Source: Methanocaldococcus jannaschii DSM 2661
Lineage (GTDB): Archaea; AGJL01; Methanococci; Methanococcales; Methanocaldococcaceae
Direction: 5' to 3'
NCBI RefSeq assembly: GCF_000091665.1
Contig: NC_000909.1
Coordinates: forward strand, 1,222,961-1,254,960
DNA: 32,000 bases
Part shown: positions 1,497 through 30,071 of the stretch, in pieces
How positions within the stretch are numbered: position 1 is the stretch's first letter
How the letters are laid out: every line of letters begins with the position of its first letter
Notes under the pieces: generated by a model
Told to the model about the DNA's origin: nothing
The model's input: the letters and a program-made list of their open reading frames with translations, nothing else
The model's database searches: none
Translations under genes and position numbers: made by a program

Positions 1497-1970
1497 ATGA
1501 ATTTAATATTAACTCTACTCATAATTTTTGCCATAATTGGGCTTTTAATTTTAATTTTTGGAATTTGGCTGATAAAAAAACTTCTATTTCCAAAAAAGAA
1601 GCCAAAACCATATCAAGTTAGACATGGAAGCTCATCAAGTAAAAGAGGTTATGGAAGTCATGATGTTTATCATCACCATTATGTAACTAAAGATGTCTAT
1701 GTCCATGATTATGGCGATGACGACATTTATGATGAAAGAGGAAAAAAAGAGGGTGATAAAGATGATAGTTTAATAGATAAAGCCATTGCCTTTGGAGCTG
1801 GAGCAGTAACTGGTTATGGAGTAGCAGAATATGGTGAAGAGATTAAAGAAGAGGTTGAAGATATTGTAAAAGAGGGAGAAGATATAATTGATGATATTGT
1901 GGAAGAGGCAGAGGACTTTGTTGAAGATGTTGTTGATGACTTTGATAATGGAGGAGACGACGACTATTAA
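1497..1970 (+). CDS. Small membrane-anchored protein with a His/Tyr/Asp-rich middle and an extremely acidic C-terminal tail.
   Basis: It has an N-terminal TM helix ([24 protein letters not shown]), then an [21 protein letters not shown] segment, then a D/E-rich tail ([40 protein letters not shown]). An AGGTGA SD precedes the ATG and AT-rich TATA-like sequence lies upstream. Confidence 0.7.
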
Positions 1971-1986
1971 AGAGGAGGTGTTTTTT

Positions 1987-4900
1987 ATGAAAAAATTTGT
2001 TATTATTTTGACTATTTCGATTGCTGTCCTATTTGCTGGTTGTGTTTCAGAGGAAGGAAGTTATGAAGAGTCAAAAATATCTGAAAAATCTATATCATCA
2101 CCATTAGATATTGTTCCAAAATCATCTGAAAAAGTTGTATATACTAAAACAGAAGGATTTGTTGATTTATTGGGAGAGAATAGTGAAATAGTAAATGCAT
2201 ATAAGGAGTTAATTGGGAAGTATGGTTTAAGTGTGGATGATATTGAATACACAATCCAAGCAGACAATACTTATGTATTAAAGGGATATGGCTTAGATGA
2301 ATATAAATTCATGGACGAACTTGGCTTAGATTATAAAGAAGAAAAATATAATGGAGCAAATATGCTTATAAATGAAAATCACAATTATGCTGTTGCAAAA
2401 TACAAAAATTACCTTATTCATGGAAATACTGAAGATGTAAAAAGAGTTATAGACACAATAAAAGGGGACTATCCATCGATAACAGAGAAGAAGGAAATTA
2501 AGGACATGTTAAGTAAAGTAGATGACGATTATGTAATAGCAAATATCGGAAGAAATTATAAGGGGTATTATGGCGCTTTTATATACCTTAAGGGAAGAAA
2601 TGTAGAGTTTGATGTTGTTGCCGTATATAATGACGTAGATGATGCAAAAGAGCAGTATGAATATGTAAAAGAGGAATTAGAGGATGAATTAGATAATGGA
2701 AACATCAAAGATTACGATATAGATAGGGATGGCAATATAGTTGTAGCAAAGGTAATAATGAGTAAAGAGGAATTCTTAGGAGATTATGCTAACAAACTTG
2801 GTTTAAATTTTGGAAATGAAATAAAATACAATACTGAAAATGAATACAATACACAAACTAAAGAGAAAAGTGAATTTAACCACGATAATACCAACAAAGT
2901 TAATAAAAATATCAATCTTGAAGAGCCATATAATTTAATCCCAAATGTGTTTTGGGCGAGCTATGTGGATGTAGGAAAGTTTTCTAAAGTGGTGAAGGGA
3001 AAGGGCGTGTATGATGAGTTAAACAGTATATTAAAGTGCTATGGATTATCTCCAGATGATGTTGAGTTTTATATGAACTTAGAAACAGCCAATTTAATAA
3101 AAACAGATAAACTAACTGCTAAAGAATACTTAAAAAAATTGGGCTATAGTTACAATGAGGAATATTATGGTGGAGCTACTTTGTTAGTATATACTACAGA
3201 AGTATCTGATATGGTAGGCAAATTTGCAGCTACAAACTATAAAGGATATTTCATATTTGGATTAAAAGGAGGAGTTGAAAAAGTTATTGATGCTATAAAT
3301 GGAAAAAATAATTTGGTAACTGAAGATGAAAATATAAGAGAGATAATAAATGAAATGCCAAAAGGATATTTTGCATTCAAATTATACAATCAGTTTGATG
3401 CAGATGGAGGGGAATTTTATTATGATGAGGGAGATAAAATTGTAATTAAGGGACTTTGGATATGTATTGATGATGAATATGCTAAAAAAAGAAAATATAT
3501 TATAGAAAATGATTATGAAAACTATGGATATACAGATTATAATATTGAAGTGGATGGAAATAGAGTAACAACCACACTTACTATTGACAAAGATGAGTTT
3601 GGTGAGTATGATGGATACACTCTTGTAAGTTCTGATTGGATTGGATTGAAAAAACTTGAAAATTGTGAAAATGTAAATGAAGAAGAAGAAAACCAAATTA
3701 ATGAAGAGCAACAAACCAACGTAGAAAATGAACAACAGACCGAACAGCAGTTTGAAAATGAAGATAAAGAGACCAACACTTATGAATTACCTTTAACATG
3801 GAAAGAACTCGAAGTTGCAGGAATGGATGGAGTTATGTTCGACTTTGGAAATAAGAAAGTAACATTTGAAGATTGGAAATATAGCCCTTGTGAATTTAGA
3901 AATCCAATAATTATAGATGGAAATAAAATATGGTGTTTTGGATTTAGTGGAGGAGAGTATGGATATTTCACATATAACGATAATATGGGATTCGATGCCG
4001 ATGTTGATGACATAATTTTAATAGAAATGCCTTACAATGTAAAAGCAGTATGTGATGACTTTTATGGAGCGGGGTGGTTTATAGAGGATGATAATGGAAA
4101 GTTGCATCATGTAATATTTGACTGTCCAAAAGAAACAATAATGGATAAAACAGGAAATGTTGAAATTGATTTAGCTAAAATTAAAAAAGATGTTGTGGTA
4201 GCAAATGTGGATGTTGATGAATTGATGGCTGGAGCAGAGGATAATAAAAATAATTACAAAATAGTTATTGGTTGGAAAGGAAATAAACTTTACTTAATTA
4301 CTATGGAGAAAGATAAGTTTGAAGATTGGGCTTATAACAGTAAATATGAAGATGGATTTGATGAACCATTCCCACCTGTGCAAATTAAGGAGTTTGAGTT
4401 TAATGGTAATATAATAGATGCAAGAAGTGATTTTAGGAATTATATAATAGTGGCAACAGAAAATGGGCTTTATATAATAACTGTTTATAAAAGAGAGCCA
4501 GATGAGTTTAAAATAACTGACTCTTTAAAAACAAATATTGAATGTTATGCTTTTGATACAGGTTCTGGATTATTGGTATATTATGATGGAAGTAAGGTAT
4601 ATTATACAGATATAAAAATTAAATCTGAATCAGATAATTCGGATATTTACTATATTGCAAGAAACTATGAAGGTGGCTTAAATATTGATGGAGTTACTGG
4701 ATTGTCAATATGTCATAACTACAATTGGCTTGGGACACAAGTGGAAGTGGCTGGAGATGGATGGATAAAAACCTACAATATAGAGTTTGAAGCTAAAAAA
4801 GATGCAGAAGGGAACTCTGTATATGACGAAAATGGAAATTCAATATATATAGTTAAATTCGAGCCAAAAAATGTATATTACGATGAAATTTATGATAAAT

Positions 4901-5750: not shown

Positions 5751-6809
5751 ATGAGGAAGATTATTTTAATATTTTTTATATTTTTAATACTCCAAAATAT
5801 CTACGCTTATGAAAAAATCTATGATGTTAATCATGTTTGCTACTACACATTAACATCTGTTGAACTTCAAAAATTTGTAAAAACTGCAGAGATTATAACC
5901 CCCTTAAACGCAGATAACAAAACAACAATTACAAAAGATACAATATTAGTTGGCAATCCAGAAGAAAATCCTTTAACAAAAAAATACATTGGATTCTTTA
6001 AAATAAAAATAAATAAAACCTTTCCAGGAAAAAATAAAGGGATTATTGAAAAACAGATAATAAATGGACATACAGTCATTCTATTAGCTGGTTCTGATAT
6101 ACAGGGAACTTATGCATCAATAATAACATTTGCTAATCTAAACGACATTCCAGAAAACCCAATTATATGTGAAACCTCAAACAAAGTTAATATTTACAGC
6201 ACGTCTCTTAATAGTGAATATTTTAGAGACTTTATTGAAAAAAATATATTAACACCAAAAGAAATTGAAAAAGTTAAATCCCTATCTTATAAATTAAAAG
6301 GAAAGGATAAAAAGGCTACTATTGAAAATATAGCAAAGTGGGTAGCAAACAACATAAAGTATGATTATGATAAGTGTAAAAAAATAGAAAGTGGAAAATT
6401 TAGCTGGGATGAGTACAATACCCCATCAGAAACGGTAAAAACAAAAAAAGGAGTTTGTTTAGATTACGCCACATTAACCTCCGCTCTATTGCTAAATGAT
6501 AATATAATCCCTTATATGTTAGATGTTGCTTTATATAATACCTCATCATTAAAAATCTCATCCTATCATGCTTCAGTTGCTGTGAAAATAGATAATACAT
6601 ACTTTGTTATAGACCAACAGCCATATTTGATTCCAATTAACGAATATACTGCCCAAACATTTGAAGACAATTTGAGAATCGCCAGCATTGTAATGTTTAG
6701 AGTTGTAAAAGAAAGGGATGGCATAAAATTAATAAAAGAAAAAGAAGTTCCAGGAATTGCAATATATGGGGATTTAATAAACCTCTTAGAAATGAGATTT
6801 AATAACTAA
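5751..6809 (+). CDS. Secreted transglutaminase-like (papain-fold Cys-His-Asp) superfamily protein.
   Basis: It has a signal peptide (MRKIILIFFIFLILQNIYAY). The core motif KKGVCLDYATLTSALL (G-x-C-x-D-[YF]-A) is followed by SSYHASVAVKIDNTYFVIDQQ, which supplies the His and Asp. The 3' end overlaps the convergent peptidase gene by 24 nt. Confidence 0.7.
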   Translation: MRKIILIFFIFLILQNIYAYEKIYDVNHVCYYTLTSVELQKFVKTAEIITPLNADNKTTITKDTILVGNPEENPLTKKYIGFFKIKINKTFPGKNKGIIEKQIINGHTVILLAGSDIQGTYASIITFANLNDIPENPIICETSNKVNIYSTSLNSEYFRDFIEKNILTPKEIEKVKSLSYKLKGKDKKATIENIAKWVANNIKYDYDKCKKIESGKFSWDEYNTPSETVKTKKGVCLDYATLTSALLLNDNIIPYMLDVALYNTSSLKISSYHASVAVKIDNTYFVIDQQPYLIPINEYTAQTFEDNLRIASIVMFRVVKERDGIKLIKEKEVPGIAIYGDLINLLEMRFNN

Positions 6810-7550
6810 TTCTATTACTTTAAAAATCAACGGAAAAGGAGAGACAATATACAAAATATAAGAAAGACATATGAAAACCAAAAAAGGGAGTTGAGGAGTA
6901 ACCCAAACTTTTCCTTTGTATGTTTTTTTCTCTTCCTTTTCTTCATTTATATTGGGAATTAAGGAAAGGTTTTCATCATCCCCCATAATGGTCTCAAATT
7001 TTTTAACTTTGTCTATATCTTTTTTTAAAGCTATAAACAATAATGGTAAATTCTTTAACTTTAATCTTTTATGATTTCCATTTTTTAGGTTTATTAATAA
7101 GATAAATATACAGTAGGGGATGACAAAAAGTATTGCATTTAAAAAAATAATGAAGGTAAAGAACATCCCTTTTAAATAACTCAGCCCCATTAAAAATTTA
7201 CAATCTCCTCCTCCCATAAAATTAAGGTAGTATAAAAAAATTCCAATCAAATAAAATACTAAAAAAGATAACGCAAAGTATGATTTAAACAAAATAAATG
7301 ACAATAAAAATAAAAACACTCCAATATAAACTAACTTATTAAACTTTTCATATCTAACAGATAGGGTAATAAATAAAACAGCAAAAATCTCAATAAAAAA
7401 TAGTAATAAACTTTTATTATATAGGAGATGAATAAAAACTCCTACCCAGAGCATAGATATCCATAAAAAGTCAGTAACCTCTCTTTTTCTCCAATCCTCA
7501 ACTGCCCCATATATTGAGCAAATCAACCCATATAAATAACCCAAATCCAT
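6786..7550 (-). CDS. Archaeal A24-family prepilin/preflagellin peptidase (EppA/FlaK-like).
   Basis: Polytopic membrane protein. The first acidic motif is near the N-terminus (AVEDWRKREVTD) and a second GxGD-type motif (NFMGGGDCKFLMGLS) follows. It is the last gene of the pilus-like operon. Confidence 0.8.
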   Translation of the reverse strand: MDLGYLYGLICSIYGAVEDWRKREVTDFLWISMLWVGVFIHLLYNKSLLLFFIEIFAVLFITLSVRYEKFNKLVYIGVFLFLLSFILFKSYFALSFLVFYLIGIFLYYLNFMGGGDCKFLMGLSYLKGMFFTFIIFLNAILFVIPYCIFILLINLKNGNHKRLKLKNLPLLFIALKKDIDKVKKFETIMGDDENLSLIPNINEEKEEKKTYKGKVWVTPQLPFLVFICLSYILYIVSPFPLIFKVIELVIKSHF

Positions 7551-7562
7551 ACTTCCACCAAA

Positions 7563-8102
7563 TTAATTAATGTTCCAGCTTTGATATTCAAAAGAATTAT
7601 TTAAAGATGAATAAAACATCCTTGGAGTCGTTATAAAAATATCTGTCAAAACAAATCCCTTAGAAGATATTCCTTTTTGTGGATTAAAAATTGTTATGTT
7701 GTGATTAAAATCTTCATCATGCAAAGAAACATAAAGCATTGGTGAATTACCATAAATGACATTGAAATAGCTATTTTTGCAGGATTCATTTAGGATGAGA
7801 TAAGAAGTGTCACTAAAATTGTTTATACTCTCATTAAGATTATAGTTAAGAATTACATCTGAATAGTTATTTAACAACTCAACTTCAATTGGCGAAGTTG
7901 TATCATTAAAGACAAAATTACCGCTTTCATTAATTGTTATAGTATAGTTTTTATATGAACTTTTAACATATAATATTCCAGAAAAGCTTCCATTCATTGA
8001 CATGTTTATATATGTTACATTCTCAGAGTTATTGTAATATCCACTTGTATTTATAAAGGATACATTTTCTGCCAATGAGTTGTTAAAAACATCCTTTGCC
8101 AT
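7563..8102 (-). CDS. N-glycosylation-sequon-rich extracellular domain protein, probably the C-terminal part of the upstream prepilin-like gene.
   Basis: 179 aa with 16 N-x-S/T sequons by my count. It has no signal peptide or TM and no SD before its ATG. It overlaps 8051..8704 by 52 nt in another frame. Confidence 0.55.
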   Translation of the reverse strand: MAKDVFNNSLAENVSFINTSGYYNNSENVTYINMSMNGSFSGILYVKSSYKNYTITINESGNFVFNDTTSPIEVELLNNYSDVILNYNLNESINNFSDTSYLILNESCKNSYFNVIYGNSPMLYVSLHDEDFNHNITIFNPQKGISSKGFVLTDIFITTPRMFYSSLNNSFEYQSWNIN

Positions 8103-18904: not shown

Positions 18905-19011
18905 TTTATTCTATTTTTTTCAAATCAATAAAATTTATTGAAGAAGGTTTGAACACCTCCAAAGGAAGGCGTTTATTAGTGCGTTAGTTATCTAAGAAGT
19001 TTGAAAGACAC

Positions 19012-20549: not shown

Positions 20550-21617
20550 TTATAAACTGTGGAAATCAGCAATCATCTTTAAATCATCCTCTAAACATCT
20601 TCCCTTTGTAGTTAAATAATTCCCAACCATTAATCCGTCTAAGACCATTAAGGCATAAGATTGGAAGTCTCTTAAGTTGTATATTCTCCCACCAGCCAAT
20701 CTAATCTCTGCATAAGGCATAATTATTTTATATAACGCTATCAATTTCAAAGCATCTGAGACACTTATTGGCTTAATCTCTCCATTTTTTATTTTTTCAT
20801 AAGCTTTAGTTCCTTCAATTGGATGTAAAATATTTATTGGAACGCTATCAACCCCTAACTCTTTAAGTTCAAAAGCCATCTTTATTCTCTCCTCTACGCT
20901 CTCTCCAAGTCCAAATATTCCACCACTACAAACCTCTAAGTCAAGTTTTTTTGCCTCTTTTATAACTTTTACTTTATCTTCATAGCTATGAGTTGAACAG
21001 ATATTTTTAAAGTAGTTTTTTGATGCCTCTAAGTTATTGTGAATCCTAACGTCCAATTTTTTTAGTTCTTTTAATTTTTCTCTATCCAATAAACCCAAAG
21101 AACAGCACACTTTTAAATTTGTTTCTTCCTTTATAAGCTCTATAGCTTCAACAATTTCAATGAATTCATCATCATTAATTTTTTTGCCACTTGTTACTAT
21201 ACTGAATCTCTCTACCCATAGGGGAAACCCCCTATTGGGATACCCCACGTCCATTAAGTTGGGGCTTTCAGCCCCAATTAATGTCCCACGTTCTATGGAT
21301 GAGGAAATTTTAGAACATTCATCGATGATTTTTTTAGCATACTCTAAAATCTCCTTTTTAGATTTTAATGGATATATTGGGATGTTGCATTTACTATAAA
21401 TTGATTGAGAGCAGAAAATACAATCCTCTTTGCATTTTCCACTTTTTGCATTTATTATAGCACATAATTTAATTTTGCTATTATTTTTTATCCTATTTTT
21501 TATTTTAAAAGCCAAATATAACAAATCTATAGCACTGAAGTTATTATATAAATAGAGGGCATCATCAAAATCTATTTTGTTCTTTAGAGATTTTTTTAAA
21601 AAAGTTTCAATCTCCAT
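20550..21617 (-). CDS. bioB: Biotin synthase (radical SAM) carrying a ~30-35 codon in-frame insertion.
   Basis: It has the CKEDCIFCSQS CxxxCxxC motif, FSIVTSGKK and GLMVGNYLTTKG. The start is re-placed at ATG 21617 (MEIETFL) behind GGTGAT plus 4 nt. The segment SSSIERGTLIGAESPNLMDVGYPNRGFPLWVE sits between the AKK... helix and the conserved (R)FSIVTSG strand, where I recall BioB proteins as contiguous. Confidence 0.9.
   Translation of the reverse strand: MEIETFLKKSLKNKIDFDDALYLYNNFSAIDLLYLAFKIKNRIKNNSKIKLCAIINAKSGKCKEDCIFCSQSIYSKCNIPIYPLKSKKEILEYAKKIIDECSKISSSIERGTLIGAESPNLMDVGYPNRGFPLWVERFSIVTSGKKINDDEFIEIVEAIELIKEETNLKVCCSLGLLDREKLKELKKLDVRIHNNLEASKNYFKNICSTHSYEDKVKVIKEAKKLDLEVCSGGIFGLGESVEERIKMAFELKELGVDSVPINILHPIEGTKAYEKIKNGEIKPISVSDALKLIALYKIIMPYAEIRLAGGRIYNLRDFQSYALMVLDGLMVGNYLTTKGRCLEDDLKMIADFHSL
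21205..21300 (-). repeat. GC-rich two-hairpin element embedded in frame in bioB (modules X and Y).
   Basis: Hairpin X spans 21215..21239 (CCCATAGGGG AAA CCCCCTATTGGG). Hairpin Y spans 21252..21283 (CATTAAGTTGGGGCT TTC AGCCCCAATTAATG). ACGTGGG direct repeats flank Y. GC content is far above the surrounding coding sequence. Confidence 0.7.
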
Positions 21618-21676
21618 AAAAATCACCCTATATACAATAAATAAACATTAACTTTTAAAATTTATTGGTGATTGTT
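21618..21676. promoter_or_regulatory. Compact divergent bioB / bioW promoter region with mirror-image SD sites.
   Basis: 59 bp lie between the two start codons. GGTGAT SD motifs occur on both strands (21622..21627 and 21667..21672). TATA-like CCTATATACAATAAA and TTTTAAAATTTA lie between them, each about 25-45 nt from the opposite-side start. Confidence 0.4.
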
Positions 21677-22378
21677 ATGTATAGTATAAAGATGAGGGCA
21701 TCGAAGAATGGAAAACACATCTCTGGAGCTGAGAGAATTGTAAATAAAGATGAGATTGAAGAGACTGTTAAGGAGCTTGTAAGAAGGGCTTTAACTCATG
21801 AAAATGGAACTCCAGACTTTATAAATATAAAGATTGAAGAGATTAAAGAAGAGATAACATACATTAACCACTTGCCAATAAAAACAATACACTGTAAAGA
21901 TAAAGAAGAGGCAAGAGAAACGGCAAAGAAAATATTAAGAAATGAAGGCATCCCAGATAGCGTTATAGATTATGCTTATGAGATTATTGATAAAGGGGGA
22001 ATGAGAGGAGCAGCAATTTTAAATTTAAAGGGAGAGAGGTTAGAGCCAGATAAGGAGAGAGGAGTTAGAGTTAAAAACATAGATACAACAAAGGAATTGA
22101 AAGAGAAGATTTTAAAAGAAAATTTAGGGACAGAAAGAACTGTCGATGCCATTGCCATAGCATCTAAGGTTATTCATTTGGGAGTTATTGCAGAACTCTG
22201 CACATCGGATAATAAAAGCTACACAACTGGCTATGTAGCAACTAAAAAGGGATACTTTAGAATTACAAATTTAAAAAAAGAGGGAGAAAGTGGAGGAAGG
22301 GTATTTTTTGTTAAAGATGATGTTGATATAGAGGATTTAATCAACAAATTAGAAAACAAACCATTTATTATAAAATAA
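21677..22378 (+). CDS. bioW: 6-carboxyhexanoate-CoA ligase (pimeloyl-CoA synthetase).
   Basis: [22 protein letters not shown] is the characteristic BioW N-terminus (RMRA...HISGAER). The start is re-placed at ATG 21677 behind GGTGAT. It is located in the bio cluster. Confidence 0.85.
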
Positions 22379-22390
22379 AAAGGGATTTTT

Positions 22391-23509
22391 ATGTTTAGGG
22401 AGAAATTAAGAAGAGAGATTGAAATTATAAAGAACAACGGATTATATAGATTTTTAAGGAAAAAAGATGATGGAGTTTTAGATTTCTCTTCAAATGATTA
22501 TCTATGCCTATCAAAGCATCCAGAGGTTATTGAAGCAGTTAAAGAAGGGCTAAAATATGGGGCTGGTTCAACCGGCTCAAGATTAACTTCTGGAAATATA
22601 AACCATCAAAGATTGGAGGAGAAGATAGCTGAATTTAAAGAGACGGAGAGGACTTTAGTTTATTCATCCGGCTATGCAACGAATGTTGGAGTTATCTCTG
22701 CATTGTGCAAAAAAGGAGATTTAATTTTGAGTGATAAGCTTAATCATGCCTCTATCATTGATGGTTGCAAGTTGAGTAAAGCAGATGTTTTAATTTACAA
22801 TCATTGCGATGTTGAGCATTTAACCAACTTAATTGAAGAGAATTGGGGGAAATATAACAACCTCTTTATTGTAACTGATGGAGTTTTTAGTATGGATGGG
22901 GATATAGCTCCTTTGAGGGATTTAAAGAAGATAGCTGATGAATTTAATGCCATTTTAATTATTGATGACGCACACGGCACTGGAGTTTTAGGAGATGGGA
23001 GAGGAACATTAAAGCACTTTAATTTAAAACCTTCTGACAACATAGTGCAAATTGGAACTTTATCTAAAGCAATTGGTGGTTTAGGAGGCTTTGTCTGTGG
23101 AATTGAGGAGGTTGTAGAGTATTTAATAAACACTTCGAGGAGTTTTATATTCTCAACTGCTCTACCTCCTCATGTAGTTGAGGGTTGCATTAAGGCCTTT
23201 GAGATTATTGAAAAAACAGATATAGTTAAAAAGCTTCAAAAAAACATAAAAATAGCAAATAAAGTTTTTAAAAAATATGAATTTATTAAAGAAGATAACT
23301 TAACTCCAATCTATCCATTTATTTTTAAAGAAAAAACCATGGAAATAGCAGAACATTTAATAAAAAATAATATCTTTTGTGTAGGAATTAGATATCCAAC
23401 TGTTCCTAAGGGATTGGAGAGGATAAGGGTTAGCATAAATGTTGGGCATGAAAAAGAGGATTTTGAACTGTTGTGTGAGAGGATTAAAGAGGTTTATAGT
23501 AGTGACTGA
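22391..23509 (+). CDS. bioF: 8-amino-7-oxononanoate synthase (PLP-dependent).
   Basis: It has FSSNDYLCLS, DDAHGTGVLG and the PLP-lysine motif GTLSKAIGGLGGF. 372 aa, located in the bio cluster. Confidence 0.9.
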   Translation: MFREKLRREIEIIKNNGLYRFLRKKDDGVLDFSSNDYLCLSKHPEVIEAVKEGLKYGAGSTGSRLTSGNINHQRLEEKIAEFKETERTLVYSSGYATNVGVISALCKKGDLILSDKLNHASIIDGCKLSKADVLIYNHCDVEHLTNLIEENWGKYNNLFIVTDGVFSMDGDIAPLRDLKKIADEFNAILIIDDAHGTGVLGDGRGTLKHFNLKPSDNIVQIGTLSKAIGGLGGFVCGIEEVVEYLINTSRSFIFSTALPPHVVEGCIKAFEIIEKTDIVKKLQKNIKIANKVFKKYEFIKEDNLTPIYPFIFKEKTMEIAEHLIKNNIFCVGIRYPTVPKGLERIRVSINVGHEKEDFELLCERIKEVYSSD

Positions 23510-23525
23510 TATTTCTCTTTTTTAG

Positions 23526-24299
<774 letters not shown>

Positions 24300-24304
24300 A
24301 TAAA

Positions 24305-25690
24305 ATGAACATTGATAAAAATTTACTTGAAAAATGGGATAAAGAATATATTTGGCATCCATACACACAGATGAAAGAATATAGAGAATCAAAAAACTTG
24401 ATTATTGAGAGAGGAGAGGGCAATTATTTAATTGACATTTATGGAAATAAGTATTTGGATGCTGTTTCATCTATATGGTGTAATCTATTTGGACATAGTA
24501 GAAAGGAGATAATTGAAGCAATAAAAAATCAAGCTGATAAAATCTGCCATTCAACACTTTTAGGCTGTGGAAACGTCCCATCAATTTTATTGGCAAAAAA
24601 ATTGGTGGATATAACTCCAAAGCATTTAACAAAGGTATTTTACTCTGAAGATGGAGCAGAGGCAGTTGAAATAGCAATTAAAATGGCTTATCAATATTAT
24701 GTTTTAAGAGGAGATAAGGGAAGAACTAAATTTATTTCAGTTAAAGAAGGCTATCATGGGGACACTGTTGGAGCAATGAGTGTTGGGGGGAGTGAATTAT
24801 TCCATGGGGTTTTTAAGCCTTTATTGTTTAAAGGCTATCATGCAAATCCTCCTTACTGCTACAGATGCAAATACCACAACTTTAAAGATACTGATGAGAG
24901 AAATGAAAAAGGTTGTGAAATGGAATGTTTAAATGAGATGATTAGTTTAATTGAAAAACATGCTGAGGAAGTATTTTGTGTTATCCTTGAAGGAGGAATT
25001 ATGGGTTCTGCTGGAATGATTCCATATCCAGATGGATATATTGAAGGAGTTGCAAAGGCATGTAAGGAGAATGATGTAATCTTTATCCTCGATGAGGTAG
25101 CTACTGGATTTGGAAGAACTGGGAAGATGTTTTTCTGTGATAATGAAGAGCTAAAAAAGTTGGAGAAGCCAGATATCCTTTGTCTTGGAAAGGGATTAAC
25201 TGGAGGCTATTTGCCATTAGCGGCAACTCTAACAACTGATGAAATCTATAACCAATTCTTAGGAGAGTTTGGAGAGAGTAAGCAACTCTATCATGGTCAT
25301 ACATACACTGGAAACCAACTTCTATGCTCTGCTGCATTAGCAACATTAGAGATTTTTGAGAAGGAGAATGTGATAGAGAATATCCAACCAAAAATAAAGC
25401 TCTTCCATAAAGAATTAAGGAAATTAAAGGAACTTGAGCATGTTGGAGATGTTAGAGGAAGGGGTTTTATGGTCGGAATAGAGCTTGTAAAAGATAAAGA
25501 GACTAAAGAACCCTACCCTTACGGTTATAAAGCTGGCTACAGAGTTGCTGAAAAGCTGTTAGAAAAAGGTATCTACATGAGACCAATTGGTAATGTTATT
25601 ATCTTAGTCCCACCATTGTCAATAACTGAGAAAGAGATTATTTATCTATGCGATGCGTTGTATGAAGCTATAAAGGAAGCTGACCTGTAA
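24305..25690 (+). CDS. bioA: Adenosylmethionine-8-amino-7-oxononanoate aminotransferase (class III aminotransferase).
   Basis: It has HGHSRKEI, YHGDT, DEVATGFGRTGKMF and the LGKGLTGGYLPL PLP-Lys region. The ATG at 24305 follows a GAGGTGA SD that overlaps the bioD stop. Confidence 0.9.
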   Translation: MNIDKNLLEKWDKEYIWHPYTQMKEYRESKNLIIERGEGNYLIDIYGNKYLDAVSSIWCNLFGHSRKEIIEAIKNQADKICHSTLLGCGNVPSILLAKKLVDITPKHLTKVFYSEDGAEAVEIAIKMAYQYYVLRGDKGRTKFISVKEGYHGDTVGAMSVGGSELFHGVFKPLLFKGYHANPPYCYRCKYHNFKDTDERNEKGCEMECLNEMISLIEKHAEEVFCVILEGGIMGSAGMIPYPDGYIEGVAKACKENDVIFILDEVATGFGRTGKMFFCDNEELKKLEKPDILCLGKGLTGGYLPLAATLTTDEIYNQFLGEFGESKQLYHGHTYTGNQLLCSAALATLEIFEKENVIENIQPKIKLFHKELRKLKELEHVGDVRGRGFMVGIELVKDKETKEPYPYGYKAGYRVAEKLLEKGIYMRPIGNVIILVPPLSITEKEIIYLCDALYEAIKEADL

Positions 25691-25869
25691 TAATGGACAT
25701 TAATTAGGGCTGAAAGCCCTAACTTATAACCAATTATCAAAGCTAAATTATCTAATTAAGGAATATTTAGAAGCCCAAAGGGCTTCTATAAGTGCCTTAT
25801 TTAATTATAAAACTTTGATAATTGGTTAAATGGACGAGTTTTAATGAAACTTTTTCTAAAAGTTTCGAG
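25691..25869 (+). repeat. Composite hairpin element starting immediately after the bioA stop codon: module Y interrupted by a ~100-nt palindromic module, followed by a 9-bp-stem hairpin.
   Basis: Module Y spans 25701..25726 (TTAATTAGGGCT GAA AGCCCTAACTTA). The inner module has perfect 16-bp terminal inverted repeats, TAACCAATTATCAAAG at 25727..25742 and CTTTGATAATTGGTTA at 25813..25828. Its central hairpin TAGAAGCCC AAA GGGCTTCTA spans 25768..25788. GAAACTTTT TCT AAAAGTTTC lies at 25846..25866. Confidence 0.7.
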
Positions 25870-25923
25870 GAGATTATTTATCTATATGATTCCTTATATG
25901 ATGCTATAAAGGAAGCCGACTAG
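25870..25923 (+). other. Orphan duplicate of the last 17 codons of bioA.
   Basis: GAGATTATTTATCTATATGATTCCTTATATGATGCTATAAAGGAAGCCGACTAG (EIIYLYDSLYDAIKEAD*) compares with bioA 25634..25690 (EIIYLCDALYEAIKEADL*). By my alignment 44 of 51 nt are identical. Confidence 0.75.
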
Positions 25924-25952
25924 TAAATAATGAATAGTTATTTTCTATTATT

Positions 25953-27134
25953 TTATAACACCTTCTTTATAGCATTCCAAACTAAAAAACTCTGAGGCTT
26001 TAAAATCCCTTCTATTGGATTTAAGAATAAGATATTTCTTTTAATTAAAAACTCTCTAATTTTTTTAGGTATTTTTATATCCTCTATTTCATAATCTTCT
26101 TTAAATAATTTTAATGCATCAACAACTTTTTTATAAAGTTCCTCATCTTCTTCTTTAACATCCTCTAAGAAATATTTTAACTTTTGAGTAGCATCCTTAA
26201 GCATAAAATCTAAAATATCGTTTAAATTTTCATATCTCAACTTATCAATAACTTTTATTATTAAAACTGGTTTTCCCCCTACATAATTATAGATTAACTC
26301 TTTATCTTCATTAGTTAAGCTCATGTTATTCTCTTTAGCCAAAAAATCCATAAATTTTAAGGCAGTTTCCTTATCAAAATCATCCACTAAGATATATTCA
26401 CCTCGCATAGAGGCAAAGCCTCTATTGCTATACTCCAGAGCGGGGTTGCCAAAGGCAACCCCACTTTCTATCTGGGGGAGTATACCAATAGAGGGGGCGT
26501 AGCCCCCTCTATGGTCATCCACCAAAATATAATCAACTCTATCCTCCAACATTGCTTCATTATAAACTCTCTCTATGAATAAGCTATCTGAACTTAGGCA
26601 GAAAACGTGGCATAGGTGTTTATGCTTGGTTAGAGATACAAAGTAATTAAATAGCTCATAGATTAAGAATCCATTAATTTTCATGTCTCCAATCTTTTGA
26701 AGTTCATCAATAATAATTATTGGTTGCTTTCCTTCTCTTTTAATGTCCATTAAAACATTGGTTATATATCTAAAAACATTTTTAGTTGTTTTCTTTTTAA
26801 AAATCTCGTTTAGAGTATTTTTTGGTATGGGAATGCCATACAATGAAGGTAAGTCATTGATAATTGCCTTAATTACTTCTATAGGGCTTTTATCTCCTTC
26901 ATATTCCTCAAACAAAACTTCAATGAAATCATCGTATTTAGAGATAAAAATCTCCCTCAAATCAAAATAAAACACAATGTATTTATTTTTATCTAATCTA
27001 TTGTTAATAATCTCATTTATTAAGGCAGTTTTTCCACTATTTATGGAGCCATAGATGAAATAAATCAAATTTGGTTCTCCTTCTATAATAGATAAGATTT
27101 TATGAATTTCTTTCTCTCTATTGAAGAATTTCAT
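25953..27134 (-). CDS. Archaeal ATPase family protein (PF01637-like AAA/STAND-type NTPase) carrying a 45-codon in-frame insertion.
   Basis: [10 protein letters not shown]...[16 protein letters not shown] is Walker A and [10 protein letters not shown] is Walker B. The start is re-placed at ATG 27134 behind GGTGAT plus 4 nt. The inserted segment is [45 protein letters not shown]. Confidence 0.8.
26403..26513 (-). repeat. GC-rich three-hairpin element embedded in frame in the ATPase gene.
   Basis: The hairpins span 26405..26428 (GCATAGAGGC AAA GCCTCTATTGC), 26430..26483 (ATACTCC...GGGGTTGCC AAA GGCAACCCC...GGGGGAGTAT) and 26485..26514 (CCAATAGAGGGGGC GTA GCCCCCTCTATGG). Imperfect 24-bp direct repeats flank it at 26379..26402 and 26514..26537. 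Confidence 0.75.
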
Positions 27135-27180
27135 AAAAATCACCAAAATTCCCATTATAAAATGAGAATATATAGTAAAT

Positions 27181-29193: not shown

Positions 29194-29652
29194 TCAAATT
29201 TGTTTTAAGCCATATTTCTCTTTTAAAAAGTCTTTAATTACTTCCAACACATTTTCAGCATCTTTTAAACATTCTTCAGCATCTTCTTTAGTATATTCTT
29301 CCAATGGATTCCAAAGTTCTCCAAAATACGGTTCTGGATACCTTGGCATAACCCAATGTTCTTCTAAGCTTTCTATTTTTGGTATTAGATTTAGTAATTT
29401 CTCTTTCCATGAATCCTCAATTTTCATCTCGTAGATGACATTCCTAAACACTCCTGAAACTACATGTCTTCTGAAAATAATTCCATTTAAAATTAAAACT
29501 GCTTTTACAGCTTTTTCAACACATTGTTGGGAGTGATAGACTGAATCTGGATAGTGATTTGTTTTTAGTAGAACTTTTGCCACTTCTAAATCCTCTTCCG
29601 CCCTTTTTATGAATAGCTTAGCATACTTTATATTAAATCCGCTATCTTCCAT
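29194..29652 (-). CDS. HEPN-domain protein, the putative toxin partner of the adjacent nucleotidyltransferase.
   Basis: 152-aa all-helical protein with an N-terminal ...[12 protein letters not shown]... helix and the C-terminal [12 protein letters not shown] signature typical of archaeal HEPN proteins. It overlaps the MNT gene by 25 nt. Confidence 0.75.
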
Positions 29653-30071
29653 TCTTTCTCCTCATCGATAAATATTGGCTTTATTCTTTTAATAATCGGT
29701 TTTATTCTCTCAAGGTAATTTTTCCAGAAGTTATCTCTATCATATATTATTTTATATCCAGTTAAAATACCACAAATCAACGGATTTATACTCTTCAGTG
29801 ATAAATCCCTTGGCTCTACCAATATTGGAGAAATGTTAATCCCATATCTATAAATAAACTCTAATACTATGTCCCTTAAAACTTTATGTCTGTCAATCCT
29901 TCTTTTTGGTAAATTTTTAGCAATAACTAATAAATCAACATCTGAATACTCCACAGCAGTGCCTCTTGCATAAGAACCAAATAAAATAATTGAAATTAAA
30001 TCATCTCCAAATTTTTGTTTGCATTTTTGTAGAAATTCATCTAAAATATTATTCAACATTTTTTCATCCAT
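29628..30071 (-). CDS. Minimal nucleotidyltransferase (MNT/MntA-like, Pol-beta superfamily), the putative antitoxin.
   Basis: It has the GSYARGTAVEYSDVDLLV motif (GSxxRGxxxxxSDxDLxV) and a GGTGAA SD before the ATG. Confidence 0.85.
   Translation of the reverse strand: MDEKMLNNILDEFLQKCKQKFGDDLISIILFGSYARGTAVEYSDVDLLVIAKNLPKRRIDRHKVLRDIVLEFIYRYGINISPILVEPRDLSLKSINPLICGILTGYKIIYDRDNFWKNYLERIKPIIKRIKPIFIDEEKEWKIADLI

What the first reader, a model, noticed from the sequence alone, without database searches (positions are those of the whole stretch)
21205..26514. Hairpin modules are shared between the three gene-associated copies, show compensatory stem changes, and are read in the same frame and orientation
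Module X, on the gene-sense strand, reads CCCAATAGGGGG TTT CCCCTATGGG in bioB and GCAATAGAGGC TTT GCCTCTATGC in the ATPase gene. The flanks CAATAG / CTATG and a bulged T are conserved. The stem core is swapped (GGGG/CCCC versus AGGC/GCCT) while pairing is kept. Both copies are translated as N-R-G-F. Module Y reads ACATTAATTGGGGCT GAA AGCCCCAACTTAATG in bioB and ACATTAATTAGGGCT GAA AGCCCTAACTTAT after bioA. A G-to-A change is matched by the paired C-to-T, and the same bulge is present. In the bioA copy, module Y is itself interrupted by a palindromic module with perfect 16-bp inverted repeats, so the elements are modular and nested. Short direct repeats flank the modules (ACGTGGG in bioB, AATGGAC after bioA). 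All three copies lie in the sense orientation of their host gene. Covariation plus orientation bias suggests selection on a folded transcript or single-stranded DNA form, not just junk palindromes.
Basis: seen in the sequence. Interest (0 to 1): 0.8.

Follow-up and report, generated by a model that had tools for sequence, protein, structure and literature searches.

The report
Mobile hairpin-mosaic repeats inside archaeal genes
The three hairpin clusters are copies of a family of small GC-rich palindromic repeat elements of Methanocaldococcus jannaschii, already described in 2005, that have inserted into or next to genes; their stems co-vary because the repeat family keeps its hairpins, not because the host genes need them, but they insert in an unusual way, duplicating 20-60 bases of the target.

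Summary
The sequences are there as quoted. The window is Methanocaldococcus jannaschii (bio operon plus the MJ1301-type ATPase).

The three copies belong to one superfamily of mosaic elements built from hairpin modules: Y, X in both orientations, V, Z and a MITE-like palindrome P. Relatives show that they are insertions:
- BioB carries 34 extra residues.
- The ATPase carries 45 extra residues.
- A close relative has the empty ATPase site.

Compensatory stem variation is real. In 57 further Y copies from vent metagenomes, all four unconstrained stem pairs show double changes. X stems change in sequence and length yet stay complementary.

- Only one sense frame of each element is open, so the shared frame is forced.
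- Orientation is mixed over about 13 independent loci.
- The orthologous bioB insert in a more distant relative has lost its hairpins while keeping the frame.

This matches the palindromic MJRE repeats "with coding potential" of Suyama et al. 2005, so the finding is already known.

Two things look less ordinary. Insertions are flanked by long, variable duplications of the target (19-62+ nt). The same units cap the trailer ends of at least 20 CRISPR arrays.

The parts
21216..21329 (-). In-frame 114-nt insertion in bioB. 38 codons, IIDECSKISSSIERGTLIGAESPNLMDVGYPNRGFPLW, replace FDGI of relatives. It consists of an AT-rich leader plus a Y-X mosaic unit.
   Evidence: Protein alignment A1. The empty site is seen in Methanocaldococcus sp. 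FS406-22 (L122). The same insert is present in L125, L058 and L123.
21253..21285 (-). Module Y hairpin in bioB: GACATTAATTGGGGCTGAAAGCCCCAACTTAAT.
   Evidence: Covariance model R1 gives 60.8 bits on the - strand against 19.7 bits on the + strand.
21215..21239 (-). Module X hairpin in bioB (CCCAATAGGGGG TTT CCCCTATGGG), translated as P-N-R-G-F-P-L-W.
25696..25728 (+). Module Y hairpin, starting 6 nt after the bioA stop codon.
   Evidence: R1 gives 55.4 bits. The stem pair G-C becomes A-T relative to the bioB copy.
25727..25828 (.). Module P: a 102-nt AT-rich palindrome with 16-bp perfect terminal inverted repeats and a central GC hairpin. It is MITE-like and nested at the Y/linker junction.
   Evidence: I1. 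Fold energy -39.5 kcal/mol, z -8.3. The same junction, AACTTA|TAACC...GGTTA|AATGGA, recurs in 20 or more metagenome contigs.
25829..25869 (+). Linker AATGGAC plus module Z hairpin (GAAACTTTT TCT AAAAGTTTC, 25846-25866). This is the 3' part of the Y-P-Z mosaic.
   Evidence: I10. 95% identical to the Y-Z element at L128 4234-4271.
25634..25695 (+). Upstream copy of the duplicated target. This is the functional 3' end of bioA.
   Evidence: Local alignment to 25870-25932 scores 74; 0 of 500 shuffles reach it.
25870..25932 (+). Downstream, decaying copy of the duplicated bioA 3' end.
   Evidence: The relative L058 lacks 216 nt here.
26405..26514 (-). 110-nt palindromic mosaic (X reversed, middle hairpin, X forward) inserted in frame in the ATPase gene. 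With the duplication it adds 45 residues.
   Evidence: Protein alignment A2. Fold energy -67.1 kcal/mol, z -6.8. Absent from L058.
26380..26404 (-). Target duplication, copy 2, encoding RGEYILVDD.
   Evidence: 21 of 25 bases identical to 26515-26539. L058 has the target once.
26515..26539 (-). Target duplication, copy 1, encoding RVDYILVDD.
   Evidence: All 12 homologues have YILVDD once.

Best explanation
The three loci carry members of one superfamily of small, non-coding, non-autonomous repeat elements of Methanocaldococcus. The elements are mosaics assembled from GC-rich hairpin modules: Y at the 5' end, X at the 3' end, and X-reversed, V, Z and the MITE-like palindrome P nested between them. 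They are most probably the MJRE palindromic repeats described for M. jannaschii in 2005.

Shown:
- They are insertions. Relatives have empty sites.
- They land in and around genes, and insertion goes with a long, variable direct duplication of the target (19-62+ nt).

Inferred:
- Because of this duplication, an insertion near a gene end leaves one intact copy of the gene end and one decaying copy.
- Copies inside coding sequence survive only if total length and frame keep the gene open and the peptide lands in a tolerant loop.
- That is why the bioB and ATPase copies are in frame and share N-R-G-F.
- Stem complementarity is kept at the level of the family. Either the unknown insertion or copying machinery acts on the folded single strand, or the arms template each other.
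- Once resident in a host gene, a copy is free to decay.
For: Identity of the window: an exact protein match to M. jannaschii assemblies.

Insertions relative to orthologues.

Mosaic architecture, seen in 61 Y-containing copies: Y-X, Y-P-X, Y-Xr-V-Z-X, Y-Z, Y-P-Z.

Covariation.

Only one open sense frame per element.

Intragenic copies are rare. There are 2 independent events among 49 X hairpins in about 450 kb.

The BioB insert maps to a low-confidence loop, pLDDT 45-69, between helix 87-107 and strand 135-143 of an otherwise confident model.

Decay in the orthologue L123: insert nt identity 0.66 against 0.76 for the rest of the gene, and the hairpin energy is lost.

Long flanking target duplications occur in about 11 independent events. 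All those listed gave 0 of 200 shuffles. One event is a perfect 36-nt repeat (L177). Another is a tRNA 3' end (L163).

No Rfam family matches the modules.

Literature: archaeal repeats fused in frame into protein genes, citing Suyama et al. 2005 (PMC2229807; PMC2996958).
Against: - No mobilising enzyme or autonomous partner was found. The insertion mechanism is inferred only from its footprints.
- The bioB insert has no detectable target duplication.
- Between M. jannaschii and its nearest relatives (L058, L125) the bioB insert is more conserved than the gene: 3 differences in 114 nt, all synonymous, with an identity peak at 21217-21336. That could mean a nucleotide-level constraint.
- All three Y copies in 67 kb of M. 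jannaschii DNA are sense to the affected gene.
- Every CRISPR-trailer copy is sense to the array.
- Membership in MJRE1-3 could not be checked against the published consensus, because the paper is not held.
Confidence: 0.75

Rival explanations
1. The hairpins are host-selected RNA elements. They would act as 3'-end, terminator or stabiliser structures, or as processing sites, on transcripts.
For: - Y lies just after the stop codons of bioA and of an ATPase paralogue (L128), and supplies the stop codon of the latter.
- At least 20 CRISPR arrays end in Y-X mosaics, all sense to the pre-crRNA.
- Stems co-vary.
- The bioB insert is unusually conserved against close relatives.
Against: - Orientation relative to the affected gene is mixed over independent loci, and several copies sit at 5' ends, antisense.
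- The Y hairpins are not followed by T runs.
- The orthologous copies in L123 (bioB) and L058 (after bioA) have decayed.
- One array ends without a mosaic.
- An RNA function does not explain the intragenic copies or the flanking target duplications.
Confidence: 0.15
2. Complementarity is kept without selection, by copying. The two arms template each other (repair or snap-back synthesis in the hairpin or cruciform), or resident copies are overwritten by gene conversion from the many other copies (concerted evolution).
For: - X stems differ by symmetric length changes, for example GGC/GCC, AGGGGC/GCCCCT and AGGGGGC/GCCCCCT. These are hard to reach by paired point mutations.
- The bioB copy differs at only about 3 of 70 positions from CRISPR-trailer copies.
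- The bioB copy is more conserved than its host gene in lineages that carry many copies.
Against: - There is no direct evidence for conversion tracts.
- Y variants with three flipped pairs (GCCC/GGGC, GCTC/GAGC) keep an unchanged loop, which fits selection on pairing equally well.
Confidence: 0.3
3. The insertions are made by the CRISPR adaptation integrase (Cas1-Cas2) or a casposase-like enzyme acting off-target. This would explain both the long duplications and the CRISPR-trailer location.
For: - Long target duplications are the hallmark of Cas1-type integration.
- The units sit between a variant repeat and a final repeat in many arrays. In L146, L166 and L147 they are flanked by 19-41-nt duplications of repeat-like sequence.
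Against: - Duplication length runs from 19 to 62+ nt, not the 30-nt repeat length.
- Inserts are 70-225 nt, not the 35-45 nt of a spacer.
- They lie at the trailer end, not the leader end.
- Spacing of the two integration sites is set by the repeat in Pyrococcus furiosus Cas1-Cas2 (PMC6698737, title and abstract).
Confidence: 0.07
4. The hairpins are chance or decaying palindromes with no family relationship.
For: None beyond the decay seen in single orthologous copies.
Against: - 0 hits in shuffles.
- 57 further copies were found with a pattern that left the stem positions free.
- The module order is shared.
- Covariance model scores reach 55-61 bits.
Confidence: 0.01

Closest known systems
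MJRE1-3 palindromic repetitive elements of Methanocaldococcus jannaschii (Suyama, Lathe & Bork, FEBS Lett 2005; 579:5281)
   Same: Same organism. Short palindromic repeats, mostly extragenic, with a few copies in frame inside protein genes. From my memory of the abstract: 141 elements, and three MJRE2 copies in coding regions. The citing reviews confirm 'found fused into protein genes'.
   Different: I could not read the paper, so identity with MJRE2 is inferred. I do not know whether the mosaic module grammar, the long target duplications or the CRISPR-trailer location are in it. They are not in the abstract as I recall it.
Rickettsia palindromic elements (RPE; Ogata et al. 2000) and the Wolbachia analogues
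   Same: Palindromic selfish repeats in an AT-rich genome, inserted in frame into housekeeping genes at non-structured positions (described in PMC2996958). The BioB insert here lies in a low-confidence loop.
   Different: The sequence is unrelated and the host is an archaeon. The elements here are mosaics of several small hairpins, and they carry long target duplications.
REP sequences / BIMEs (bacterial interspersed mosaic elements) of enterobacteria
   Same: Imperfect GC-rich palindromes with compensatory stem variation, combined in both orientations with other short motifs into mosaics, often at the 3' ends of genes.
   Different: REPs are tied to RAYT (Y1 transposase) genes and a conserved 5' GTAG, and do not make target duplications. 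Neither a RAYT nor GTAG was seen here (not searched systematically). REPs are extragenic.
MITEs
   Same: Module P has perfect 16-bp terminal inverted repeats, is AT-rich, is about 100 nt long and sits at a TA/TTA junction. All the elements are short and non-coding.
   Different: The Y...X mosaics lack a fixed short target duplication and consistent terminal inverted repeats. No parent IS is known.
Mobile GC clusters, double-hairpin elements and repetitive hairpin-forming elements of fungal and sponge mitochondria (e.g. PMC2800124)
   Same: GC-rich hairpins spreading in very AT-rich genomes. They are sometimes in frame in genes, are modular, and the mechanism is unknown.
   Different: Organellar, with unrelated sequence, and only short target duplications where any are known (from my own knowledge).
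CRISPR spacer integration / casposon integration (Cas1 family)
   Same: The only well-known prokaryotic insertion reactions that duplicate tens of bases of target. The physical association with CRISPR arrays also matches.
   Different: The duplication length is variable, the inserts are too long, and they sit at the trailer end rather than the leader end.

Membership tests
MJRE (Suyama et al. 2005) | Short palindromic repeats, present in multiple copies in the M. jannaschii genome | tested here: met
   The window is M. jannaschii. About 8 elements of 3 sequence types occur in 67 kb. The folds are strongly non-random.
MJRE (Suyama et al. 2005) | Some copies lie in frame inside protein-coding genes without disrupting them | tested here: met
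   The bioB and ATPase insertions.
MJRE (Suyama et al. 2005) | Sequence match to the published MJRE1/2/3 consensus or coordinates | not testable with these tools
   The paper is not held. Only citing reviews were read.
MITE | Terminal inverted repeats | tested here: inconclusive
   Module P has 16-bp perfect terminal inverted repeats. The ATPase element has CATAGAGG/CCTCTATG ends (I4). The Y...X and Y...Z mosaics have none.
MITE | Short target-site duplication of fixed length | tested here: not met
   Flanking duplications of 19, 22, 25, 32, 36, 39, 41, 45-53 and 62 nt. Only P shows a TA/TTA-type junction.
MITE | A related autonomous IS with the same ends | not tested
   No genome-wide search was possible. 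There are no matches in the plasmid or phage collections.
REP/BIME | Mosaic combination of palindromic units in both orientations with other motifs | tested here: met
   One search shows the architectures. X occurs forward and reversed within one element.
REP/BIME | Association with a RAYT (TnpA-REP) gene and a 5' GTAG | not tested
   No such gene was seen in the loci read. There was no systematic search.
Rickettsia-type palindromic elements (as a kind, not a sequence family) | In-frame insertion at a structurally tolerant position of a globular protein | tested here: met
   AlphaFold model of BioB. The hairpin-coded residues have pLDDT 45-69, between helix 87-107 and strand 135-143, against an overall pLDDT of 86.
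Functional structured RNA (terminator / stabiliser / sRNA) | Pairing is kept at orthologous positions across species | tested here: not met
   The L123 bioB copy scores 30.5 bits and folds at -9.3 kcal/mol, z +0.6. The L058 copy after bioA scores 19.5 bits. Close relatives are too similar to be informative.
Functional structured RNA (terminator / stabiliser / sRNA) | Consistent orientation relative to transcription | tested here: not met
   About 7 sense to 6 antisense over independent non-CRISPR loci. The CRISPR-trailer copies are all sense but are not independent.
Functional structured RNA (terminator / stabiliser / sRNA) | Match to a curated RNA family | tested here: not met
   Rfam at gathering and E-value thresholds gives nothing for the modules.
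Cas1-type integration product | Target duplication of repeat length and an insert of spacer length | tested here: not met
   The repeat is 30 nt and is matched as CRISPR-DR13. Duplications are 19-62 nt and inserts are 70-225 nt.

The most novel reading that the evidence does not exclude
The hairpin mosaics spread by an insertion mechanism not described for prokaryotic repeats. It duplicates a long and variable stretch of the target (19 to more than 60 nt), so that a gene end, a start codon or a tRNA 3' end is regenerated. The mechanism builds elements by nesting hairpins inside hairpins. The same units cap the trailer ends of most CRISPR arrays in these genomes.

The variable stagger fits three possibilities: target-primed copying, template switching, or capture of hairpin DNA at widely staggered breaks. 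It does not fit a DDE or Y1 transposase. It may link repeat spread to CRISPR array ends.
Probability: 0.3. Interest if true: 0.7.

Novelty: already known. Interest (0 to 1): 0.4.

Why it matters
Its value is as a clean example of selfish hairpin DNA adding peptide loops to essential enzymes, here biotin synthase.

What would matter if confirmed is the mode of insertion. Long, variable target duplications that regenerate gene ends would explain how such elements colonise a gene-dense genome with little damage. They would also point to an unknown archaeal insertion or repair pathway. The regular presence of the same units at CRISPR trailers might bear on how pre-crRNA transcripts end, or on how arrays are duplicated.

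Tried and rejected
1. The genome-contig scan with CAATAGNGGN{3,12}CCNCTATG was too loose. It returned 120 chance hits across bacteria, with only one relevant locus (L058).
2. The Suyama et al. 2005 paper is not in the library. A search for 'MJRE' found nothing relevant.
3. The M. jannaschii extrachromosomal element NC_001732 is not in the plasmid collection. The Y-X unit has no match in plasmids, phages or viral contigs.
4. Rfam finds nothing for the modules. The MIR1888 hit to palindrome P (25.6 bits against a gathering score of 72) is spurious.
5. I looked for a target duplication around the bioB insert and found none that is significant.
6. I recalled that Pyrobaculum C/D-box sRNA genes might move with gene-end duplications. 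The paper (PMC6009581) describes a MITE-like sRNA element and rearrangements but not that, so I dropped the comparison.
7. The reading that Y is a separate insertion into the bioB X element, bounded by ACGTGGG, is rejected. Y-linker-X is the standard unit in 19 or more distinct copies.
8. The terminator reading is not backed by T runs after the Y hairpins.


Full report
**Where we are.** The window has 29.9% G+C. Its ATPase and BioB proteins match Methanocaldococcus jannaschii assemblies exactly. The region holds:
- bioB (20550-21626, - strand);
- bioW, bioF, bioD and bioA (21665-25690, + strand);
- an archaeal ATPase_2 family gene (25953-27155, - strand; PF01637/MJ1010-like).

**The observation.**
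- The X pattern CAATAGRGG...CCYCTATG occurs twice in the window and never in 100 shuffles.
- A scan for perfect GC-rich hairpins finds them at these three loci and one other place.
- Predicted folding is far better than for shuffled sequence: -40 kcal/mol, z -3.7 for bioB; -67.1, z -6.8 for the ATPase element; -39.5, z -8.3 for the nested palindrome.
- Both X copies are read as N-R-G-F.

Some details need correction.
- The ATPase element is a 110-nt palindrome as a whole (26405-26514). It has X in both orientations and a third, middle hairpin.
- The right-hand members of the 'short direct repeats' (ACGTGGG, AATGGAC) belong to a conserved linker, ATGGA(C/T)GTGGGGTAT, that follows Y in almost every family member.

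**They are insertions.**
- BioB of M. jannaschii has 38 residues (IIDECSKISSSIERGTLIGAESPNLMDVGYPNRGFPLW) where FS406-22, M. bathoardescens, strain 10A, M. fervens, M. villosus, M. indicus, Methanothermococcus and Methanococcus have four (FDGI or similar). The empty site is visible in FS406-22 DNA (L122).
- The ATPase has 45 extra residues that none of 12 homologues has.
- A close relative (L058, a Methanocaldococcus MAG) has the bioB insert but lacks the ATPase insert. It also lacks 216 nt after bioA.

**One mosaic superfamily.** I scanned metagenome contigs with a Y pattern whose four inner stem positions on each arm were left free: ACATTAATTNNNNCTGAAAGNNNNAACTTA. This gave 57 further copies on 55 contigs from hydrothermal-vent samples. 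Annotating modules around every copy shows a grammar. Y is at the 5' end and X forward at the 3' end, with optional modules nested between. The observed types are:
- Y-X, about 75 nt. This is exactly the bioB insert.
- Y-P-X.
- Y-Xreversed-V-Z-X, 180-225 nt.
- Y-Z.
- Y-P-Z. This is the copy after bioA.

The window's ATPase element is the inner part of the long type. Its reversed X plus GATACTCCCC is about 90% identical to those copies.

P always sits at the same junction, AACTTA|TAACC...GGTTA|AATGGA. It has 16-bp perfect terminal repeats, so it looks like a MITE with a favoured target inside the mosaic.

Z itself carries further small hairpins nested in it in some copies.

In 67 kb of M. jannaschii DNA (window, L127, L128) there are about eight elements of three sequence types. 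That density is of the order of the 141 elements I recall from the 2005 abstract.

**Covariation.**
- On the 12 distinct Y sequences, all four unconstrained pairs show changes on both sides (G-C to A-U, C-G, U-A). 93.6% of cells are paired, and no shuffle out of 500 reaches the observed covariation score. Sliding the partner columns destroys the signal.
- Two variants flip three consecutive pairs (GCCC/GGGC, GCTC/GAGC) with the loop unchanged.
- X inner stems come as GGC/GCC, AGGG/CCCT, AGGC/GCCT, GGGG(G)/CCCC(C), AGGGGC/GCCCCT and AGGGGGC/GCCCCCT. They are always complementary, even when the length changes.

**Why that does not show selection on the host transcripts.**

First, frame.
- The Y-X unit has one open frame in the sense direction, TLIGAESPNLMDVGYPNRGFPLW. 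The others are closed by TAA in CATTAA, TGA in GCTGAA and TAG in CAATAG.
- The ATPase element has one open frame per strand.
- A surviving intragenic copy must use that frame, so the shared N-R-G-F is forced.

Second, orientation. I classified about 13 independent non-CRISPR loci by the gene that was hit.
- Sense: bioB, bioA, an ATPase 3' end, L136, L165, L162 and the PNP gene of L128.
- Antisense: the L157 type, the L150a/L139 type, L177, the tRNA of L163, and L173.

That is no bias. Intragenic copies are rare: 2 events among 49 X hairpins in about 450 kb.

Third, orthologous copies.
- A relative whose BioB is 73% identical (L123) has the same insert in the same frame.
- Its nucleotide identity in the insert (0.66; amino acids 0.45) is below that of the rest of the gene (0.76; 0.77).
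- Its fold energy is that of random sequence (-9.3 kcal/mol, z +0.6), and the Y model scores 30.5 bits instead of 60.8.
- The Y after bioA is also degraded in L058 (19.5 bits).

Fourth, the AlphaFold model of BioB (pLDDT 86) places the hairpin-coded residues in a low-confidence loop between helix 87-107 and strand 135-143. This is as expected for a tolerated passenger.

**A caveat.** Against the closest relatives (L125, L058) the insert differs at only 3 of 114 positions, all synonymous, while the rest of bioB is 86% identical. The identity profile peaks at 21217-21336. This may be a nucleotide-level constraint. It may be recent recombination. Or it may be overwriting by gene conversion from the many near-identical copies elsewhere; trailer copies differ from the bioB copy at about 3 of 70 positions. 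I cannot decide between these.

**Footprints of insertion.** Two of the window's copies are flanked by long direct duplications of the target.
- 25 nt around the ATPase element (26380-26404 and 26515-26539). The protein reads RVDYILVDD...RGEYILVDD, and L058 has the target once.
- 62 nt of the bioA 3' end (25634-25695 and 25870-25932).

The same holds elsewhere:

| Locus | What is duplicated | Length |
|---|---|---|
| ATPase paralogues (L128, L145, L150, L170) | 3' end of the gene | 45-53 nt |
| L150a | 5' end of a gene, including its start codon | 47 nt |
| L136 | 3' end of the upstream gene | 41 nt |
| L162 | region of the downstream gene's start codon | 39 nt |
| L177 | 5' end of a gene, including its start codon | 36 nt, perfect |
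| L163 | tRNA 3' end, leaving an intact tRNA | 32 nt |
| L157 | 5' end of a gene, including its start codon | 27 nt or more |
| PNP gene in L128 | 3' end of the gene | 22 nt |

The duplication regenerates the gene end, and in L128 the element supplies the new stop codon. This explains how insertions near gene termini are harmless.

A variable stagger of 19-62+ nt is unlike DDE or Y1 transposition. It is also unlike Cas1-type integration, where the spacing is set by the repeat. I infer an unconventional mechanism: target-primed copying, template switching, or capture at widely staggered breaks. Nothing here shows which.

**CRISPR trailers.** In about 36 of the 57 metagenome copies the mosaic lies at the downstream end of a CRISPR array.
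- The repeat is GTTAAAATCAGACCGTTTCGGTATGGAAAT, matched as Rfam CRISPR-DR13 on the same strand.
- The mosaic follows a variant repeat, GTTAAAATCAGACCTCTTGGAGGTTAAAGTTTAG, and is followed by one more repeat.
- A 315-nt leader conserved in 20 or more contigs lies on the other side of the arrays, so the mosaic end is the trailer end.
- At least 20 arrays with different last spacers have a mosaic. Orthologous trailers differ in mosaic type. One array ends without a mosaic.
- In L146, L166 and L147 the mosaic is flanked by 19-41-nt duplications of the repeat-like sequence.

Whether this is a favoured target, a shared ancestral trailer or a functional 3' cap of pre-crRNA is open.

**Comparison with what is known.** Two reviews state that archaeal repeats with open reading frames are fused into protein genes of M. 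jannaschii, citing Suyama, Lathe & Bork 2005. As I recall it, the abstract reports 141 palindromic elements in three groups and three MJRE2 copies inside coding regions. The window's copies are almost certainly among them, but the paper could not be read.
- In behaviour, the elements resemble Rickettsia palindromic elements (in-frame passengers).
- In architecture, they resemble REP/BIME mosaics.
- They fail the MITE criterion of a short, fixed target duplication.

**Verdict.** As a phenomenon the finding is already known. The long variable target duplications and the CRISPR-trailer location are the parts worth a specialist's second look.

Noticed in passing
window 25634-25695 / 25870-25932 and 26380-26404 / 26515-26539; also L128 4152-4196/4282-4326 and L177, L136, L150, L162, L163: Insertions of the hairpin mosaics are flanked by long, variable direct duplications of the target (19-62+ nt). 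These regenerate gene 3' ends, start codons or a tRNA 3' end. This is unlike the short fixed duplications of MITEs.
   Followed up: yes
L140 10975-11300 (-), L146 850-1115, L166 2505-2760, and about 30 other contigs among L129-L183: The same Y...X mosaics sit at the trailer end of at least 20 different CRISPR arrays, sense to the repeats. They lie between a conserved variant repeat (GTTAAAATCAGACCTCTTGGAGGTTAAAGTTTAG) and a final repeat. One array (L136 510-1600) ends without a mosaic.
   Followed up: partly
window 21217-21336 compared with L058 and L125: The bioB insert is the most conserved stretch of the gene between M. jannaschii and its closest relatives: 97% against 86% nt identity, with all differences synonymous. 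In the more distant L123 it is less conserved than the gene.
   Followed up: partly
window 18922-19000; L127 1190-1270; L128 1386-1466: A further intergenic repeat family of about 80 nt, centred on the hairpin TGAACGCCTTCC AAA GGAAGGCGTTCA. It is unrelated in sequence to X, Y and P, and may be another MJRE group.
   Followed up: no
L128 13109-13240: A mosaic made of X plus the V hairpin (ACACCTCC...GGAGGTGT) lies downstream of a PNP_UDP_1 gene, with a 22-nt duplication of that gene's 3' end.
   Followed up: partly
L145 300-560, L150 5349-5600, L139 803-960: Module Z (GATGAAAC...AAAAGTTTC) carries additional small hairpins nested inside it in some copies. Examples are GGAAAGC AGA AGCTTTCC and CGAAGC GTTA GCTTCG. 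The mosaics therefore seem to grow by hairpin-in-hairpin insertion.
   Followed up: no
proteins P0128 and P0194 (alignment A2, columns 109-123): Two ATPase paralogues from other Methanocaldococcus share a 15-residue insertion, EAKLRATKTEGFRLI, after KYDDF. The others lack it. It may be another in-frame repeat insertion.
   Followed up: no
L122 (Methanocaldococcus sp. FS406-22) 1509-4028 and 6209-7848: The syntenic bio locus of FS406-22 has a Piwi-domain (Argonaute-like) gene where M. jannaschii has the ATPase gene. It also has an ATPase_2/DUF234 gene inserted between bioD and bioF, so this neighbourhood is a variable spot.
   Followed up: no
L140 12300-12662 (-): The leader-proximal part of this array repeats the same two spacers two or three times. 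This is either an assembly artefact or a tandem duplication within the array.
   Followed up: no
window 29194-30071 (-): An adjacent nucleotidyltransferase (PF01909) and HEPN (PF05168) gene pair, of the toxin-antitoxin type, according to the Pfam labels of the matching contig L001.
   Followed up: no
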